In this document: positions 18,001 to 24,000 of the stretch, piece after piece
How the letters are laid out: every line of letters begins with the position of its first letter
Position numbering within the stretch: position 1 is the stretch's first letter
NCBI RefSeq assembly: GCF_988242995.1
Contig: NZ_OZ547043.1
DNA length: 64,000 nucleotides
Direction: 5' to 3' (one strand)
Program-made: the position numbers

Positions 18001-21000
18001 TGGTTAAACGCCGAAACTGTACAGACGCAAACCTATGAATTATGCGATGGCGTCGCTGGCGGCTATGACTGGCAACGCGTACGACAGCTTGCCGCCGAAG
18101 CCCGTTGTGGTTCTGTGCGGATGGTTGGCATTCCTCTGCCGCTACTCACCTGCCTTGCGGATATCAGTACTGCGTTGAGTCGCCTGGCAGGTAAAGAACC
18201 TATGCTGACCCGCTCGAAAATTCGTGAATTAACCCACGCCGACTGGTCGGCAAATAATAACCGTATTTCTGAAGATATTAATTGGTTTCCCGGGATTAGC
18301 CTGGAACACGCATTACGCAACGGGCTATTTTGATTGTCTTGTTTAAAGGTGTGTTAACGTTTCTATGGTAAATCGTGAAATAGTAATGGATTACATCCTT
18401 TCCTGTTTACAGGATTTGGTCGAAAACGGTGTGGAAATTAAGCCCGACAGCGATCTCGTCAACGATCTTGGCCTGGAGTCGATCAAAGTGATGGATCTCT
18501 TAATGATGCTGGAAGACAGATTCGATATTTCCATTCCTATTAATATTCTGCTGGATGTCAAAACCCCTGCGCAATTAATGGAAACACTACTTCCATGGCT
18601 GGAGAATAAATAATGGGGCTATACGATAAATATGCGCGCCTTGCTGGCGAGCGACTGCAATTTAGTGACAACGGGTTAACACCGTTTGGCACCTGTATTG
18701 ATGAAGTGTATTCCGCCACCGAAGGTCGGATCGGCAATAAAAAAGTGATTCTGGCCGGGACCAATAATTATCTCGGTTTAACCTTTAATCATGATGCCAT
18801 CGCCGAAGGTCAGGCAGCATTAGCGGCCCAAGGCACCGGCACCACCGGTTCTCGTATGGCAAACGGCAGTTATGCGCCGCATCTGGCGTTAGAGAAAGAG
18901 ATCGCCGAGTTTTTTAATCGCCCTACCGCTATCGTTTTTTCAACCGGTTATACCGCTAATTTAGGCGTCATCAGCGCACTTGCCGACCATAACGCCGTGG
19001 TGTTACTGGATGCCGACAGCCACGCCAGTATTTATGACGCCTGTTCTCTCGGTGGCGCGGAAATTATTCGTTTCCGCCATAACGATGCTAAAGATCTGGA
19101 ACGGCGCATGGTTCGCCTCGGTGAACGGGCAAAAGAGGCGATTATCATCGTTGAAGGCATCTACAGTATGCTCGGTGACGTTGCGCCGCTGGCGGAAATT
19201 GTTGATATCAAACGTCGTCTCGGTGGTTATTTGATTGTCGATGAAGCGCATTCGTTTGGCGTGTTAGGCGCAACGGGGCGCGGACTGGCTGAAGCCGTTG
19301 GCGTTGAAGATGATGTGGATATTATCGTTGGTACTTTCAGTAAAAGTCTGGCCTCGATTGGCGGTTTTGCTGTCGGTTCGGAAGCGATGGAAGTGCTGCG
19401 CTACGGCAGCCGCCCGTATATTTTTACCGCCTCTCCTTCTCCGTCCTGCATTGCGACCGTGCGCTCGTCGTTAAGAACCATTGCTACACAACCAGAGTTG
19501 CGGCAAAAGCTGATGGATAATGCCAACCATCTGTATGACGGTCTGCAAAAACTGGGTTATGAGTTAAGTTCACATATTAGCCCGGTAGTGCCAGTAATAA
19601 TCGGTTCGAAAGAGGAAGGTTTACGCATCTGGCGCGAGCTTATTTCGCTGGGCGTTTATGTGAATCTTATCCTGCCACCTGCCGCGCCTGCAGGCATCAC
19701 GCTGCTGCGCTGTAGCGTAAACGCTGCCCACAGTCGTGAGCAAATCGATGCCATCATTCAGGCATTTGCTACTCTGAAGCAGTAATGTGAGCCCGCTGTG
19801 GTGCTGCGCCACGGCGGGTTTAATGTTGACTGTCATACCAATACACCAGGCTCAACGCCACCAGCACAAACACTATCGGTAAACCGAGCGCGGTAACAGG
19901 TGCGCTCAACGCAAATAACAATCCCAGATTGACCATGATTTGATAGCTGATCCAGGTGAGTAAGCCAACGATGACGCCTACAGCGAGACGGCTACCCATC
20001 CCTGGCGAGCGCGGGGCGCTAAAGGTAAACGGCACAGCCAGCAAAATCATCGCCAGAGTTAAGATGGGTTGCCCCAGTTTTTCCCACAGTGCAAGGCGGT
20101 AATCGCTGCTGGGTTGCCCGGTTTCCTGCAAATAATGGATGTAATGATTAAGCTGACGGACAGAAAAAGTATTCCCCGGCATCGATAACTCTTCAAGATC
20201 CATACTGGTGAAGGCCGATTGCCAGGCAAGATTATCTGATGTTTCCAGCGTTTCTTTGCCATTCAACCATTTTTTATGATTCACACCATGCAGGATCCAC
20301 GTTTTGTCGTCTTCAATGGAGGCACTGCGTGCAAAAATGTAGGATTCGAGCGAGAGATCGTCGCGATAATGAAATATCTCCACGCCCACAGGCTGGCCCT
20401 GCTCGTTCAGCGATTTCACCGTCACAAATTCATTACCGCGCCTGGCCCAAAGCATATTGCCGGTAATGTCATCGTCCTCCCCCAACGCGGTGGCAGTCGA
20501 TTTGATTTGCAGCGCCTGTTGCTGCAATGGCGACGCCACCCACTCATCTATCGCGCCTAACGAAACAGTCCACAATATCCCGGCAACCAGCGCCACCAGT
20601 GCAATACGGAAGATAGAAAACCCAGTGCTGCGAATGGCGGTAAGCTCACTGTTTTTCGATAACTGCCCCAGGCCAACAATCCCTCCCAATAATGCGATAA
20701 ACGGCGAAAGTTCGACCAGTGTACGCGGTAAGGTCATCAGCACCACCAGCACCGCCTGAGTCCAGCGATAACCACCCGGGCTGACATCATCCAGTTCGTT
20801 AATCAGGTTGAAGGTGGTAAAAAGCGGCAGCAATAGCCCTGCGGCGGCGGCAAAACCGAGAAAGAGATGACGGATTAAATAGCGACTGAAAACATTCATC
20901 GGGAAAATTTCTGCAGCAATGAGAAGTCGCGTGCGACCAGCATCAGCAGGCCCATTAGCATGAGTCCGGGTACTAACCACAAACCAGGAATGAGGGGAAT

Positions 21001-24000
21001 CGCGCCGTTAGCCACCAGCGTACGGCAGACGTCGCCGCCATAAAAAATGGCAATAAACAGCAACGTCAGTGGCAATAATGTTGAAAATCGCCCTTGCCGC
21101 GGTTTTACCCGACTTAATGAAATGGCCAGCAGCGCCATCAACAATGCTGTCAGGCCACGGCTTTGTCGCCATTGCAGTTCGGCATGATCGGCTGGAAAGA
21201 CGGAGCGCGCCAGCTCCGTGACCGATTTTGCTTTGCGTTTGACGTTAGGGCTTTGATCCAGCGGATTCAGATGTAATTGCAGATTACGGTAGATCTGTTC
21301 GTTGTCGTCACGCCCCTGATGATCGAGAAGATAGGCGGTCCCGTTATGCAACATAACGGTCGGTTTCTCAGGTGATGGGTCAACCACATCAACCGAACGG
21401 GCGCGGAAAATGCGGGTTCGATTGGCAGTAGAAGTATAAATCAGCGCGTCAGTCAGGCGATTATTATCCTGATCAACCGTCTGCGAAAGGATCATTCGTC
21501 CGTTATCGTTAGTGTTAAATTTCTTTGCCCGCAACTGGCGAACATCCAGCTCCGACTGTGACTGTTGCTCCAGTTGATAAATCTGCGCATAAGCCCACGG
21601 ACGACCATACATCGACAGAAGGGTGACAAAAATACTTAGCGGTATCGCCAGATAAAGAACGGCTTTGTACAAGCGTCCCGGACTGCCCCCCGCCGCAGAA
21701 ATAGCGGTAATTTCCGAGTCGGTATACATCTGCCCTAGCGTCACGCCAACTGACACATACAGTCCAACAGGTAACAACATCTCCAGTGCAATCAGCACCT
21801 TGTAGAAAACAATATCCAGCACAACATCAAGAGCTAATGTCCCATTTGCCGCTTCGGTCAGATAACGCTGTGCGGAGTAGCTGGCGAAAATAAAGATCAG
21901 AAAACCGACGATAATCAGCACCAGACGGCGCGTACCACGCATGATGTAGTGTTCAACCAGCTTCATCTCACTAACGCCCTCAATCCTTTGAATTTTTTAT
22001 TCATTGATCAGTTTCTGCGCCAGCGCAATGACATGTTCTACCTCTTCCGGCGTCAGGCTGCCGTCCTTTGCCCACTGAATTTGCCCGGCTTTATTCAGCA
22101 CCAGAATGGTTGAACTCTGCTCCGGCAACCGCCAGGCAACGCGTCCCTGTCCATTGCCGTCAATAACGAATTGCGCCCACGGATAGCGGCGTTTATTTTT
22201 TTCGATTTTGCCAACGACAAAATAGCCAGTACCAAAAATGGCATCATCGGTGTTCACAATGGTGGTGGGCTGAAAACGATCCTGCGGAAAGTTTGCCGCT
22301 TCAACCGCTTTAATTAACAGTGAGTTCTTTTTCTTCGCCGACTTACGCCCGGCGATATACTGAATAATGCGAACTTTTCCCGCCAGCTGTGTGCTGTTCC
22401 ACTTTTGGTAGTGAATTTCGTCGTCGCTATTCAGAAGCAGCTCGCCGCCTTCCTGGATATAAACAGGGGTAACCGTTTTGCCAGTGACGAAATTGTGTGC
22501 CTGCACACCCGGGGCTAAGAGCATGATAATCAGCGCAATAATCAAACGAGATGACATCATTGCTCCGGTTATAGCGGAAAACGCGAAATCAGCAGCTCTA
22601 AGCGCTGGCGAATATCGCTATCCAGCGCCACCGGTGCATCATACGACTGGCGGTTTTCCATATCATCCGCCACCATGTCGTCGTGTTTATCCCCCATCAG
22701 GCCATTAATGGCGGCGAGGAAGCGGGAAATCTGTAACGCCTCTTTATTTTCAGGATCAAGCGATCTTAGGGTGTCGTAATAAGAAACCTGCTGGCTGATG
22801 ATTTTTCGCACATCATGAAATTCCCTGCCAGTTAGTCGCGGTTTGGCAATTATCTCTTTCAGGGTATGCATTTGCTTTTGCCGATAGGCAATAAAACCGC
22901 TTACGCTTTCTAACTGGCTATGGCGTAATGAATAGTTCACCAACGACCAGACCGGAGAGCTTAAATAAACCCGTAACAGGTTGCCGTAATACGACACAAT
23001 ATTTTTCTTACCGTTACGAAAGCCGTCCTGAAAACGCCCCAAAAAAACGGTCGTTTTGCCGAATAAAAATCCGGCCTGATGCTTTTTTAAATACAGCCGT
23101 TGCGCAAAACGCAGGTGCTTGTAGCGCGCTCGCATGTATTTAAATTGTTTGCGCTCATCAGCAGTCAGCTCATCGCCTTTGGCCTGTTTGCATATTAAAC
23201 GCAGTAACTCCTGGCGATTGACGCCATTGAGCCAGAATTGCAGGCATAACGCGTAATTATCATGGATGATTTCGGTGGTACAACTTAGTGCGATAGTCGG
23301 CGGCAAACTGACCTGTGCATCAACGACATCATCTTCTTCAATCGCAACAAATAGACGCTCGCTAGCCTCAAGCGGGAAATATTTTCTCATCATCAGGATT
23401 TCTCTCCGGCTGCGTTATAAAGCAAGGAATGGCGCTGAAAAAATGCCTTTAAGGTTGGAATTAGCGAGAGCACCACATCCAGACATTGCCCAGCGAAGTA
23501 AGCAAATGCAGCCCCCAGCACGCCAAACAGATGACAGAACATGAACAGCAATACGATGTAGCCGATTGAGGCGATGGTTTGCGCCACGAGAAAAGCACGC
23601 TGTTTTCCCGCCATCAATAGCAATGACTCCTGTGGGAAGCCCAGCATCGAAATCACAATTGCGCCCAGCATCACCTGAATCAGGTCATACGCTTCGAGAT
23701 ACTTAACGCCAAACACCAGCGAAATGAGCGGCTTGCCGACGATCAACACCGCGAGCGCCACCAGAATACCGATTCCGCCCGCCAGTAAACCGGACTTCAC
23801 GCCTAACAACCACGGTCTGGTGGTGCGCGGATCTAAACGCATCACCTCTGGGTAAAAACTTTTACCCAGTAAACCCGCTGGCGTTCCGGCGGCGTCGAAG
23901 AATGTCATGGCGATTTTAAATAACCCGGCGGCAGCGGGTCCTAACACGATCCCCACCAACACTGTGCTGCACGAGTTACGTGCCGACCAGATGGAGTGGG

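What the first reader, a model, noticed from the sequence alone, without database searches (positions are those of the whole stretch)
19820..21966. Paralogous LptF/LptG-like permease pair with no adjacent LptB-type ATPase
Two overlapping ~357-aa polytopic proteins show by-eye similarity to LptF and LptG (for example LGQMYTDSEITAISAAGGS and KPRQGRFSTLLPLTLLFI). No ABC ATPase with an LSGGQ signature is encoded nearby. Located in a lipid-synthesis locus, a second LptFG-like extractor could move the lipid product out of the inner membrane, borrowing an ATPase encoded elsewhere or using a different energy source.
Basis: partly seen in the sequence, partly recalled or inferred. Interest (0 to 1): 0.65.

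Follow-up and report, generated by a model that had tools for sequence, protein, structure and literature searches.

The report
Second LptF/LptG pair, sphingolipid locus
These two genes are a real second copy of the permeases that extract lipopolysaccharide from the inner membrane; they sit in E. coli's sphingolipid-synthesis locus and probably export that lipid using the housekeeping LptB ATPase, an arrangement already described in 2024-2026 papers.

Summary
Window 20896-21966(-) encodes a 356-aa LptF-type permease. Window 19820-20899(-) encodes a 359-aa LptG-type permease. Their stop and start codons overlap in ATGA. Both pass the Pfam and NCBIfam LptF/LptG models over their full length. No ABC ATPase is encoded anywhere in the 64 kb.

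The window is the E. coli glc-yghO...yghT-pitB-hyb region. The pair lies between spt (with aasR, cerR and acpR) and ytfJ-like/yghQ/yghR/yghS. It is a second copy: 5425 of 5426 complete E. coli genomes carry the pepA-linked lptFG, and 4161 carry this pair. K-12 lost it through an IS5-associated deletion.

The proteins are only 28-29% identical to the housekeeping LptF/LptG. LptF2 groups with LptFs from other bacteria that also sit next to spt (bootstrap 56/60).

Caulobacter LptF2/LptG2 become essential only when anionic sphingolipid is made, and they co-purify with LptB. That preprint draws the same E. coli locus. So this is already known, but untested in E. coli. In this strain an IS4 element disrupts yghO, the N-acyltransferase of the pathway.

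The parts
20896..21966 (-). lptF2: LptF-type permease, 356 aa
   Evidence: NCBIfam TIGR04407 318 bits against a cut-off of 230. Pfam PF03739 over residues 7-345. AlphaFold2 model with pLDDT 90.4 shows six long helices, a short coupling helix (85-91) and a beta domain (158-232). Best Foldseek PDB matches are LptF chains, TM 0.80. 29% identical to K-12 LptF.
19820..20899 (-). lptG2: LptG-type permease, 359 aa, start codon overlapping the lptF2 stop (ATGA)
   Evidence: NCBIfam TIGR04408 307 bits against a cut-off of 240. Pfam PF03739 over residues 6-353. 28% identical to K-12 LptG over 350 aa. Best PDB sequence matches are LptG chains, 138-148 bits. Overlap read.
21997..22560 (-). ytfJ-like gene directly upstream of lptF2: periplasmic YtfJ-family protein with a signal peptide
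   Evidence: NCBIfam TIGR01626 212 bits against a cut-off of 151. N-terminus MMSSRLIIALIIMLLAPGVQA. Same position in the Serratia locus L017.
22569..23393 (-). 274-aa protein of unknown family, same operon
   Evidence: No Pfam or NCBIfam match. A gene with no Pfam match and of similar length (280 aa) sits in the same position in Serratia; its sequence was not compared.
23393..24742 (-). yghQ: MOP/Polysacc_synt-type flippase candidate, 449 aa (3'-truncated in K-12)
   Evidence: Weak NCBIfam MOP flippase match. Polysacc_synt Pfam hit on the Serratia gene in the same position. K-12 copy is 355 aa and abuts IS5.
24788..25546 (-). yghR: P-loop protein, weakly dTMP-kinase-like
   Evidence: Walker A GCDGTGKS. 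Weak dTMP-kinase and AAA matches. Homologues in the Pseudomonas sp. LS-2 sphingolipid locus.
25578..26291 (-). yghS: paralogue of yghR, first gene of the minus-strand operon
   Evidence: Walker A GCDGSGKS.
26465..27157 (+). yghT: third paralogue, transcribed divergently
   Evidence: Walker A GSDGSGKS.
18613..19785 (+). spt: serine palmitoyltransferase, convergent with lptG2
   Evidence: NCBIfam NF047599 600 bits against a cut-off of 500. 388/390 identical to BL21(DE3) Spt, which is characterised in PMC9386255. 54% identical to Caulobacter Spt.
18365..18613 (+). acpR: specialised acyl carrier protein
   Evidence: 82/82 identical to BL21 AcpR (ECD_02853); PMC9386255.
17419..18333 (+). epi/cerR: NAD-dependent epimerase/dehydratase-family reductase
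   Evidence: 292/304 identical to the BL21 copy. 33% identical to the Caulobacter gene next to acpR-spt.
15698..17422 (+). aasR: fatty acyl-AMP ligase / acyl-AcpR synthetase
   Evidence: NCBIfam NF006624 870 bits. 98% identical to the BL21 copy; PMC9386255.
12745..13683 (-). yghO (aca/bCerS-type N-acyltransferase), 3' part, cut off by IS4. The 5' ~70 codons lie at 15112-15326.
   Evidence: blastn against strain C4. yghO is named as the aca gene in PMC9386255 Fig 9.
13684..15111 (+). IS4-family insertion sequence that disrupts yghO
   Evidence: 1428 bp absent from strain C4, with an 11-bp duplicated junction. Transposase matches NF033592 at 299 bits. No complete E. coli genome has this junction.
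19792..19818 (.). 10-bp-stem hairpin (CCCGCTGTGG / CCACGGCGGG) in the 34-bp gap between the convergent spt and lptG2 stop codons; possible bidirectional terminator
   Evidence: Read directly. The consensus scan flagged only a shorter hairpin here and was not enriched over shuffles.

Best explanation
The two genes are lptF2 and lptG2, the paralogues of the lipopolysaccharide-extractor permeases that travel with the sphingolipid locus.

Shown here:
- They have the complete LptF/LptG architecture.
- They are a translationally coupled F-G pair.
- They are a second copy in the species.
- They are under purifying selection.
- LptF2 belongs to a subfamily whose members sit next to spt-acpR-cerR-aasR in distantly related bacteria.

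Inferred mechanism: LptF2 and LptG2 form the membrane half of an ABC lipid extractor. They dock two copies of the housekeeping ATPase LptB through their conserved coupling helices; LptB is encoded elsewhere on the chromosome. The complex pulls the ceramide-type product of the adjacent Spt pathway out of the outer leaflet of the inner membrane. It passes the lipid through its periplasmic beta-jellyroll domains towards the outer membrane, probably along the shared Lpt bridge. YghQ is the likely flippase that acts before extraction.

In this particular strain the pathway is probably blocked, because IS4 disrupts yghO. The extractor may therefore have little or no cargo.
For: - **Family and fold:**
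- **Second copy:** 5425 of 5426 genomes carry canonical lptFG and 4161 of 5426 carry this pair. Identity to the K-12 LptF and LptG is 29% and 28%.
- **Locus identity:**. PMC9386255 shows that E. coli AasR, AcpR and Spt make 3-oxo-sphinganine and names yghO as the N-acyltransferase gene.
- **Conserved linkage:** six of seven related LptF2 genes on long contigs lie within 10 kb of AMP-binding, Epimerase, PP-binding and Aminotran_1_2 genes. These are Pseudomonas sp. LS-2, three unnamed contigs from public assemblies, Serratia and Nitrococcus. A lower-scoring relative lies in the canonical holC-pepA context.
- **Tree:** the five spt-anchored LptF2 sequences form a clade that excludes K-12 LptF and the pepA-linked relative, with bootstrap 56/60.
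- **Coupling helices:** the glutamates (LptF E84, LptG E88) are invariant in all F2/G2 sequences aligned.
- **No local ATPase:** there is no LptB-type ATPase in the window or within 10 kb in the seven other long-contig loci.
- **Selection:** pN/pS is 0.00-0.10 for lptF2, lptG2 and spt against BL21 and C4.
- **Experiments on the Caulobacter counterparts** (bioRxiv 10.64898/2026.04.12.717747): deletion is possible only without spt or cpgB; F2 and G2 form a complex; both pull down LptB. Fig 2B of that preprint shows the E. coli UTI89 locus.
Against: - No experiment exists for the E. coli proteins.
- No sphingolipid has been reported from unmodified E. coli. BL21(DE3) carrying empty vectors showed no 3-oxo-sphinganine (PMC9386255), so the locus may be silent in the laboratory.
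- I could not obtain the Caulobacter LptF2/LptG2 sequences, so orthology to the tested proteins rests on the preprint's figure and on shared gene context.
- The E. coli accessory genes (yghQ, yghR, yghS, yghT, ytfJ-like, the 274-aa protein) differ from those of Caulobacter and most other loci (ceramide kinase, NTP_transf_3). The final lipid is therefore unknown.
- yghO is disrupted in this window.
- NCBI's models name these proteins plain LptF/LptG, so sequence alone does not exclude LPS as a substrate.
Confidence: 0.7

Rival explanations
1. They are a redundant or specialised second LPS exporter, as the automatic annotation 'LPS export ABC transporter permease' implies. For example, they might carry a modified LPS or lipid A variant.
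For: - Both proteins exceed the NCBIfam equivalog cut-offs for LptF and LptG.
- Several cavity residues that contact the lipid A phosphates are retained: LptF R33, K317 as R, LptG K62 as R, R136 as K (residue roles from PMC6744409).
Against: - The pair is absent from K-12 and about 23% of strains, while canonical lptFG is universal.
- The subfamily is linked to spt clusters across distant taxa and forms a separate clade.
- Identity to the housekeeping pair is only 28-29%.
- In Caulobacter the essentiality of the paralogues depends on sphingolipid synthesis, not on LPS (bioRxiv 10.64898/2026.04.12.717747).
Confidence: 0.08
2. The pair is powered by something other than LptB, for example the three P-loop proteins YghR, YghS and YghT encoded in the same locus.
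For: - YghR, YghS and YghT carry the only Walker A motifs in the window. yghS and yghR lie in the same minus-strand gene string as lptF2G2, and yghT lies next to it, transcribed divergently.
- YghR/S/T-like genes also accompany the locus in Pseudomonas sp. LS-2 (tblastn). Genes of similar size, one with a faint Thymidylate_kin hit, sit in the same position in Serratia.
Against: - They have no ABC signature motif and resemble dTMP or nucleoside kinases. That fits a head-group phosphorylation or activation role better.
- They are absent from loci L006, L007, L008 and L009.
- The coupling-helix glutamates that fit the LptB groove are invariant.
- LptB was pulled down by the Caulobacter proteins.
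Confidence: 0.04
3. In this strain the pair is an idle remnant of a decaying locus. The pathway is broken or silent, so the permeases currently do nothing.
For: - IS4 splits yghO.
- K-12 has lost the whole block next to IS5.
- Truncated lptF2 variants exist in public data, for example a 238-aa form in Shigella boydii.
- No native product is seen in BL21 (PMC9386255).
Against: - Both ORFs are intact.
- pN/pS is 0.00-0.10 against two other strains, so the genes have been kept functional across E. coli.
- The IS4 junction was found in none of 5426 complete genomes, so the disruption is recent and strain-specific.
- This reading concerns present activity, not what the genes are.
Confidence: 0.15

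Closest known systems
Caulobacter crescentus LptF2/LptG2 (CCNA_01214/CCNA_01213 = CC_1156/CC_1155), the sphingolipid-locus paralogues of LptFG (PMC11324152; bioRxiv 10.64898/2026.04.12.717747)
   Same: - A second LptF-LptG pair inside the spt, acpR, aasR, cerR and N-acyltransferase locus.
- No lptB copy in the locus.
- Full LptF/LptG architecture.
- The preprint's Fig 2B draws the E. coli UTI89 locus with the same homologues.
   Different: - E. coli has no LptC2 and none of cpgA, cpgB or cpgC (no DAGK_cat kinase).
- Instead it has yghQ (a MOP-type flippase candidate), three dTMP-kinase-like P-loop proteins, a 274-aa orphan protein and a periplasmic YtfJ-family protein directly upstream of lptF2.
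- The final lipid is unknown, and no genetics or biochemistry exists for E. coli.
- Sequence-level orthology to the Caulobacter proteins was not tested here.
Canonical E. coli LptB2FG(C) lipopolysaccharide extractor (lptF-lptG next to pepA; PDB 6MHU, 6S8H)
   Same: - Same Pfam and NCBIfam families.
- Same predicted fold: six transmembrane helices, a coupling helix and a beta-jellyroll.
- Conserved coupling-helix glutamates, and coupled F-G genes.
   Different: - Only 28-29% identity.
- Different chromosomal context, and not universal in the species.
- LptG K34, K40 and K41 are N, D and D here. LptF R212, Q248 and K322 are not kept.
- The presumed substrate is a sphingolipid, not LPS.
Sphingomonas wittichii LptFG (the sole pair in an organism without LPS, next to spt; described in the same preprint)
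   Same: An LptFG-type pair associated with sphingolipid genes and proposed to export sphingolipid through Lpt components.
   Different: In Sphingomonas it is the only LptFG pair. In E. coli it coexists with the LPS-dedicated pair and would have to share or compete for LptB.

Membership tests
LptF/LptG permease family (Pfam PF03739, formerly YjgP/YjgQ) | Full-length match to the family HMM | tested here: met
   PF03739 model positions 2-352 and 1-352 of 353 are matched, E 9e-54 and 2e-69.
LptF/LptG permease family (Pfam PF03739, formerly YjgP/YjgQ) | One LptF-type and one LptG-type member, scoring above the curated cut-offs | tested here: met
   TIGR04407 scores 318 bits (cut-off 230) for the upstream gene. 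TIGR04408 scores 307 bits (cut-off 240) for the downstream gene. Cross-scores are only 65-87 bits.
LptF/LptG permease family (Pfam PF03739, formerly YjgP/YjgQ) | Six transmembrane helices with a periplasmic beta-jellyroll between TM3 and TM4 | tested here: met
   LptF2 AlphaFold2 model, pLDDT 90.4: helices 3-40, 46-82, 97-137, 258-284, 297-319 and 328-355, with strands between 158 and 232. Foldseek TM 0.80 to 9dok_F, and all top hits are LptF or LptG chains. LptG2 was not modelled.
LptF/LptG permease family (Pfam PF03739, formerly YjgP/YjgQ) | Coupling helix with the conserved glutamate that docks into LptB (E. coli LptF E84, LptG E88) | tested here: met
   E is present in the window proteins and in all five other F2 and G2 sequences aligned. 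The role of these residues is from my own knowledge of Simpson et al. 2016 (PMC5082905, listed but not read).
Canonical LPS extractor LptB2FG (housekeeping lptFG) | It is the universal pepA-linked lptF-lptG pair of the species | tested here: not met
   The pair lies between spt and ytfJ-like/yghQ. The pepA-linked pair is elsewhere and is found in 5425 of 5426 genomes, against 4161 for this pair.
Canonical LPS extractor LptB2FG (housekeeping lptFG) | Cavity residues that bind the lipid A phosphates and inner core (PMC6744409) | tested here: inconclusive
   Kept: LptF R33, K317 as R, LptG K62 as R, R136 as K. Lost: LptG K34, K40, K41 and R133, and LptF Q248 and K322. The canonical P. aeruginosa LptG also lacks K34, K40 and K41 (alignment), so the pattern is not diagnostic.
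Canonical LPS extractor LptB2FG (housekeeping lptFG) | Transports LPS and is essential | not testable with these tools
   Needs depletion and complementation experiments. The absence of the pair from K-12 shows it is not essential for the species.
Sphingolipid-locus LptF2/LptG2 (Caulobacter type) | Encoded within the spt, acpR, aasR, cerR and N-acyltransferase locus | tested here: met
   The window's genes are 96-100% identical to the BL21(DE3) genes studied in PMC9386255.
Sphingolipid-locus LptF2/LptG2 (Caulobacter type) | A second pair in addition to the LPS pair, with no lptB copy in the locus | tested here: met
   Shown at species level. No ABC ATPase is in the window. The rest of this strain's genome is not available.
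Sphingolipid-locus LptF2/LptG2 (Caulobacter type) | Groups phylogenetically with other spt-linked LptF proteins, apart from canonical LptF | tested here: met
   Neighbour-joining tree of 126 LptF-family sequences (the window's LptF2, K-12 LptF and 124 representatives), plus two LptG outgroups. The spt-anchored sequences form a 99-member clade that excludes K-12 LptF and a pepA-linked relative, with bootstrap 56/60.
Sphingolipid-locus LptF2/LptG2 (Caulobacter type) | Sequence orthology to CCNA_01214/CCNA_01213 | not tested
   A primer-based scan found the Caulobacter locus, but the DNA held covers only the aasR-to-cpgB side. Spt in that stretch is 54% identical to the window's Spt.
Sphingolipid-locus LptF2/LptG2 (Caulobacter type) | Cargo-dependent essentiality, F2-G2 complex formation and binding of LptB | not testable with these tools
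   Shown only for Caulobacter (bioRxiv 10.64898/2026.04.12.717747).

The most novel reading that the evidence does not exclude
Most natural E. coli strains, including BL21 and UTI89-like strains, and other Enterobacterales may make a still-undescribed outer-membrane sphingolipid.

Its head group would be built by an Enterobacterales-specific gene set: the three dTMP-kinase-like proteins YghR, YghS and YghT, and the 274-aa orphan protein. The MOP-type flippase YghQ would flip it across the inner membrane. LptF2G2 would extract it and would compete with LptFG for the single LptB.

The periplasmic YtfJ-family protein encoded directly upstream of lptF2 may take the role that LptC2 is proposed to have in Caulobacter.
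Probability: 0.3. Interest if true: 0.6.

Novelty: already known. Interest (0 to 1): 0.3.

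Why it matters
E. coli is usually taught as having no sphingolipids. Yet about three quarters of complete genomes carry this intact locus, which is under purifying selection and includes its own Lpt-type extractor.

If the extractor shares LptB, and perhaps LptC, LptA, LptD and LptE, with LPS export, two things follow. Sphingolipid export and LPS export would be coupled. Drugs aimed at LptB2FG could also affect the second system.

These points are already raised in the Caulobacter literature. This window adds no new kind of system. It does show an Enterobacterales-specific set of accessory genes, and a strain in which the pathway has just been broken by IS4.

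Tried and rejected
- **Charge reversal on LptG TM1 as a substrate signature.** K34, K40 and K41 become N/D/E in all six LptG2 sequences. I rejected this as diagnostic because the canonical P. aeruginosa LptG also reads IDELNDIS at that position.
- **Fetching Caulobacter lptF2/lptG2.** I scanned genome contigs with the published cpgB primer sequence. The 4.7-kb locus returned covers only the aasR-cerR-acpR-spt-cpgC-cpgB side, so the Caulobacter permeases could not be added to the tree.
- **First bootstrap run.** One search is invalid. The Kimura correction gave NaN distances. I repeated it with a Poisson correction.
- **Promoter and terminator scan.** The consensus scan of 15100-27300 found no more sites than in shuffled sequence, so I make no operon-boundary claim from it.
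- **The 274-aa protein.** Pfam and NCBIfam gave nothing.
- **Naming the representative clusters.** Cluster names were almost all empty, so I used gene contexts instead.
- **Short contigs.** Three context look-ups landed on contigs under 5 kb and were only weakly informative.
- **Identifying the strain.** No complete E. coli genome has the IS4-yghO junction. The strain remains unidentified and could be a Shigella or a draft-only E. coli.

Full report
**What is in the sequence.** Two ORFs lie on the minus strand: 20896-21966 (356 aa) and 19820-20980 (386 aa as the longest ORF). The conserved start of the downstream gene is the ATG at 20899 (MNVFSRY...). RefSeq uses that start, and all aligned orthologues begin there. 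The protein is therefore 359 aa, and the two genes overlap by four bases (ATGA). This is a classic translationally coupled pair, like the canonical lptF-lptG.

**Family membership.** Both proteins match Pfam PF03739 (LptF_LptG) end to end, with E 9e-54 and 2e-69. The upstream one scores 318 bits on NCBIfam LptF (cut-off 230). The downstream one scores 307 bits on NCBIfam LptG (cut-off 240). Cross-scores are far lower. Their best matches among solved structures are LptF and LptG chains respectively. An AlphaFold2 model of the LptF-type protein was built from a 70-sequence alignment and has pLDDT 90.4. It shows six long helices, a short coupling helix at 85-91 and a beta-strand domain at 158-232. 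It superposes on LptF chains with TM-score up to 0.80.

**No ATPase nearby.** A six-frame scan of all 64 kb found one xSGGQ motif. It lies in the yghA short-chain dehydrogenase, not in an ABC protein. Walker A motifs occur only in yghR, yghS and yghT. The RefSeq annotation of the matching region of E. coli strain C4 lists no ABC ATPase across the span of the window.

**Where this is.** The window is E. coli chromosome, 99.2% identical to strain C4 across the finding. It runs from sslE and the glc operon through yghO...yghT, pitB, gss and hyb to qseBC. The gene order around the finding is:
- yghO (-)
- fatty acyl-AMP ligase, NAD-dependent epimerase/dehydratase, acyl carrier protein and spt (all +)
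- convergent with lptG, lptF, a YtfJ-family gene, a 274-aa hypothetical, yghQ, yghR and yghS (all -)
- yghT (+)

BL21(DE3) has the same arrangement, and its proteins are 96-100% identical to the window's. Padilla-Gomez et al. 2022 (PMC9386255) studied these BL21 genes. ECD_02851 (aasR), ECD_02853 (acpR) and ECD_02854 (spt) together make 3-oxo-sphinganine when overexpressed. ECD_02852 (epi) and yghO (aca) are named as the reductase and N-acyltransferase for dihydroceramide. The "lipid-synthesis locus" is therefore the E. coli sphingolipid locus.

**Is it a second copy?** The canonical pepA-linked lptF-lptG of K-12 is found in 5425 of 5426 complete E. coli genomes. The pair in this window is found in 4161 of them. 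The window's proteins are 29% and 28% identical to K-12 LptF and LptG. K-12 lacks the pair. There, IS5 sits between yghO and a 3'-truncated yghQ, and everything from aasR to the 274-aa gene is missing. The window does not contain the canonical pair, so its presence in this exact strain is inferred from the species-wide count.

**Relatives elsewhere.** A search of 1.84 billion representative proteins found about 200 clusters with E below 1e-30. I looked up gene contexts for members on long contigs:
- Pseudomonas sp. LS-2 (55% identical).
- Three unnamed contigs from public assemblies (36-38% identical).
- Serratia proteamaculans (68% identical).
- Nitrococcus mobilis (40% identical).

All six have the LptF-LptG pair within 10 kb of AMP-binding, Epimerase, PP-binding and Aminotran_1_2 genes, that is aasR-cerR-acpR-spt. 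tblastn confirmed yghO, aasR, cerR, acpR and spt homologues in the four of these loci that were tested. One further locus has the pair next to a small LptD_N-like gene and CDP-alcohol phosphatidyltransferases, with no spt within 10 kb. A lower-scoring relative lies in the canonical holC-pepA-lptF context.

In a neighbour-joining tree of 126 LptF-family sequences plus two LptG outgroups, the five spt-anchored sequences define a 99-member clade. That clade excludes K-12 LptF and the pepA-linked relative, with bootstrap 56/60. None of the seven other long-contig loci has an LptB-type ATPase within 10 kb. Three have an MsbA-like full ABC exporter next to spt or next to the lptF2-lptG2 pair; this is a flippase candidate, not an LptB.

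**Functional residues.** The coupling-helix glutamates (LptF E84, LptG E88 in E. coli numbering) are invariant in all F2 and G2 sequences aligned. This fits docking to an LptB-type ATPase. Of the LPS-contacting residues listed by Tang et al. 2019 (PMC6744409), some are kept as basic residues: LptF R33 and K317, and LptG K62 and R136. LptG K34, K40 and K41 are N/D/E in every LptG2. The canonical P. aeruginosa LptG lacks them too, so this is not a reliable substrate signature. LptF R212 is not kept; from my own knowledge, this is the site of mutations that bypass LptC.

**Are the genes alive?** Against BL21 and C4, pN/pS is 0.02 and 0.00 for lptF2, 0.10 and 0.10 for lptG2, and 0.05 and 0.00 for spt. 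This shows purifying selection within E. coli. In this window, however, a 1428-bp IS4-family element (13684-15111) with an 11-bp target duplication splits yghO about 70 codons from its start. None of the 5426 complete genomes has this junction. The pathway is therefore probably blocked at N-acylation in this strain, and only recently.

**What the literature already says.** Olea-Ozuna et al. 2024 (PMC11324152) named CC_1156 and CC_1155 of Caulobacter LptF2 and LptG2. They proposed that these proteins, with LptC2 and a flippase, move phosphosphingolipids to the outer membrane. Uchendu, Isom and Klein (bioRxiv 10.64898/2026.04.12.717747, April 2026) reported four results:
- lptF2, lptG2 and lptC2 can be deleted only when spt or cpgB is absent.
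- LptF2 and LptG2 co-purify.
- Both co-purify with the cell's single LptB.
- No lptB duplicate exists.

Their Fig 2B shows the E. coli UTI89 sphingolipid operons with the same homologues.

**Mechanism.**
- *Shown here:* family, fold, second-copy status, locus identity, conserved linkage to spt, a distinct clade, conserved coupling helices, absence of a local ATPase, and purifying selection.
[quoted passage not shown] YghQ is the likely flippase.
- *Unknown:* the final head group in E. coli, and whether the locus is expressed. The accessory genes differ from those of Caulobacter. There is no DAGK_cat ceramide kinase and no NTP_transf_3. Instead there are three dTMP-kinase-like P-loop paralogues, a 274-aa orphan protein and a periplasmic YtfJ-family protein. 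Serratia has genes of matching size and Pfam family in the same order and positions.

**Verdict.** I score interest low to moderate. The residual novelty lies in the untested E. coli biology and in the Enterobacterales-specific accessory genes.

Noticed in passing
window 13684-15111 (IS4); yghO fragments 12745-13683 and 15112-15326: An IS4-family element with an 11-bp target duplication splits yghO, the N-acyltransferase (aca/bCerS-type) gene of the sphingolipid pathway. None of 5426 complete E. coli genomes has this junction, so the strain is not in that set and the disruption looks recent.
   Followed up: yes
L004 (K-12 MG1655) 4147-6409, versus window 13684-24742: In K-12, IS5 (IS5LO) lies between yghO and a 3'-truncated yghQ (355 aa, against 449 aa here). 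The whole aasR-cerR-acpR-spt-lptG2-lptF2-ytfJ-like-274aa block is deleted, which explains why K-12 work never met these genes.
   Followed up: yes
window 24788-25546, 25578-26291, 26465-27157: YghR, YghS and YghT are three paralogous P-loop proteins (Walker A GxDGxGKS) with only weak dTMP-kinase similarity. Homologues accompany the sphingolipid locus in Pseudomonas sp. LS-2 (L005 57-1695, tblastn). Genes of similar size, one with a faint Thymidylate_kin hit, sit in the same position in Serratia (L017 4438-7035). They could act on the lipid head group. Their function is unknown.
   Followed up: partly
window 21997-22560; L017 9364-9930: A YtfJ-family protein with a signal peptide is encoded 30 bp upstream of lptF2 in E. 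coli and in Serratia, but not in the non-enterobacterial loci. The gap is in frame, and several public gene calls (P0003-P0006, 544-553 aa, with PF09695 plus PF03739) are YtfJ-LptF2 fusions. These are probably stop-codon variants or sequencing errors.
   Followed up: partly
window 22569-23393: A 274-aa protein in the same gene string has no Pfam or NCBIfam match. A gene with no Pfam match and of similar length (280 aa) sits at the same position in Serratia; its sequence was not compared.
   Followed up: partly
L008 9478-9810: A 110-aa gene with a weak LptD_N (LptC/LptA-like) Pfam hit lies divergently upstream of an lptF2-lptG2 pair in an unnamed 4.3-Mb contig. The 2026 preprint states that lptC2 seems restricted to Caulobacter, so this may be an LptC2-like gene elsewhere.
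   Followed up: no
L005 1682-3406; L006 434-2128; L009 13532-15301: An MsbA-like full ABC exporter (ABC_membrane plus ABC_tran) lies within the sphingolipid locus in three non-enterobacterial loci: next to spt in L005 and L006, and downstream of the lptF2-lptG2 pair in L009. Enterobacterales have the MOP/Polysacc_synt-type YghQ instead. This suggests two different flippase solutions.
   Followed up: no
alignment; LptG2 residues 31, 37, 38: The LptG TM1 lysines that bind the lipid A phosphates and core in E. coli (K34, K40, K41) are N/D/E in all six LptG2 sequences (motif ELDDV). The canonical P. aeruginosa LptG also lacks them, so the meaning is unclear.
   Followed up: yes
window 58197-59746: A 1.55-kb segment absent from strain C4 holds most of a 556-aa ORF (58161-59831). 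By position it corresponds to ygiS in BL21. BL21 also has mqsR-mqsA between ygiS and ygiV, but this window has only about 45 bp there.
   Followed up: no
window 31928-31991: The yghU-hybG intergenic region is about 63 bp here, against about 225 bp in strain C4 (break in the blastn alignment).
   Followed up: no
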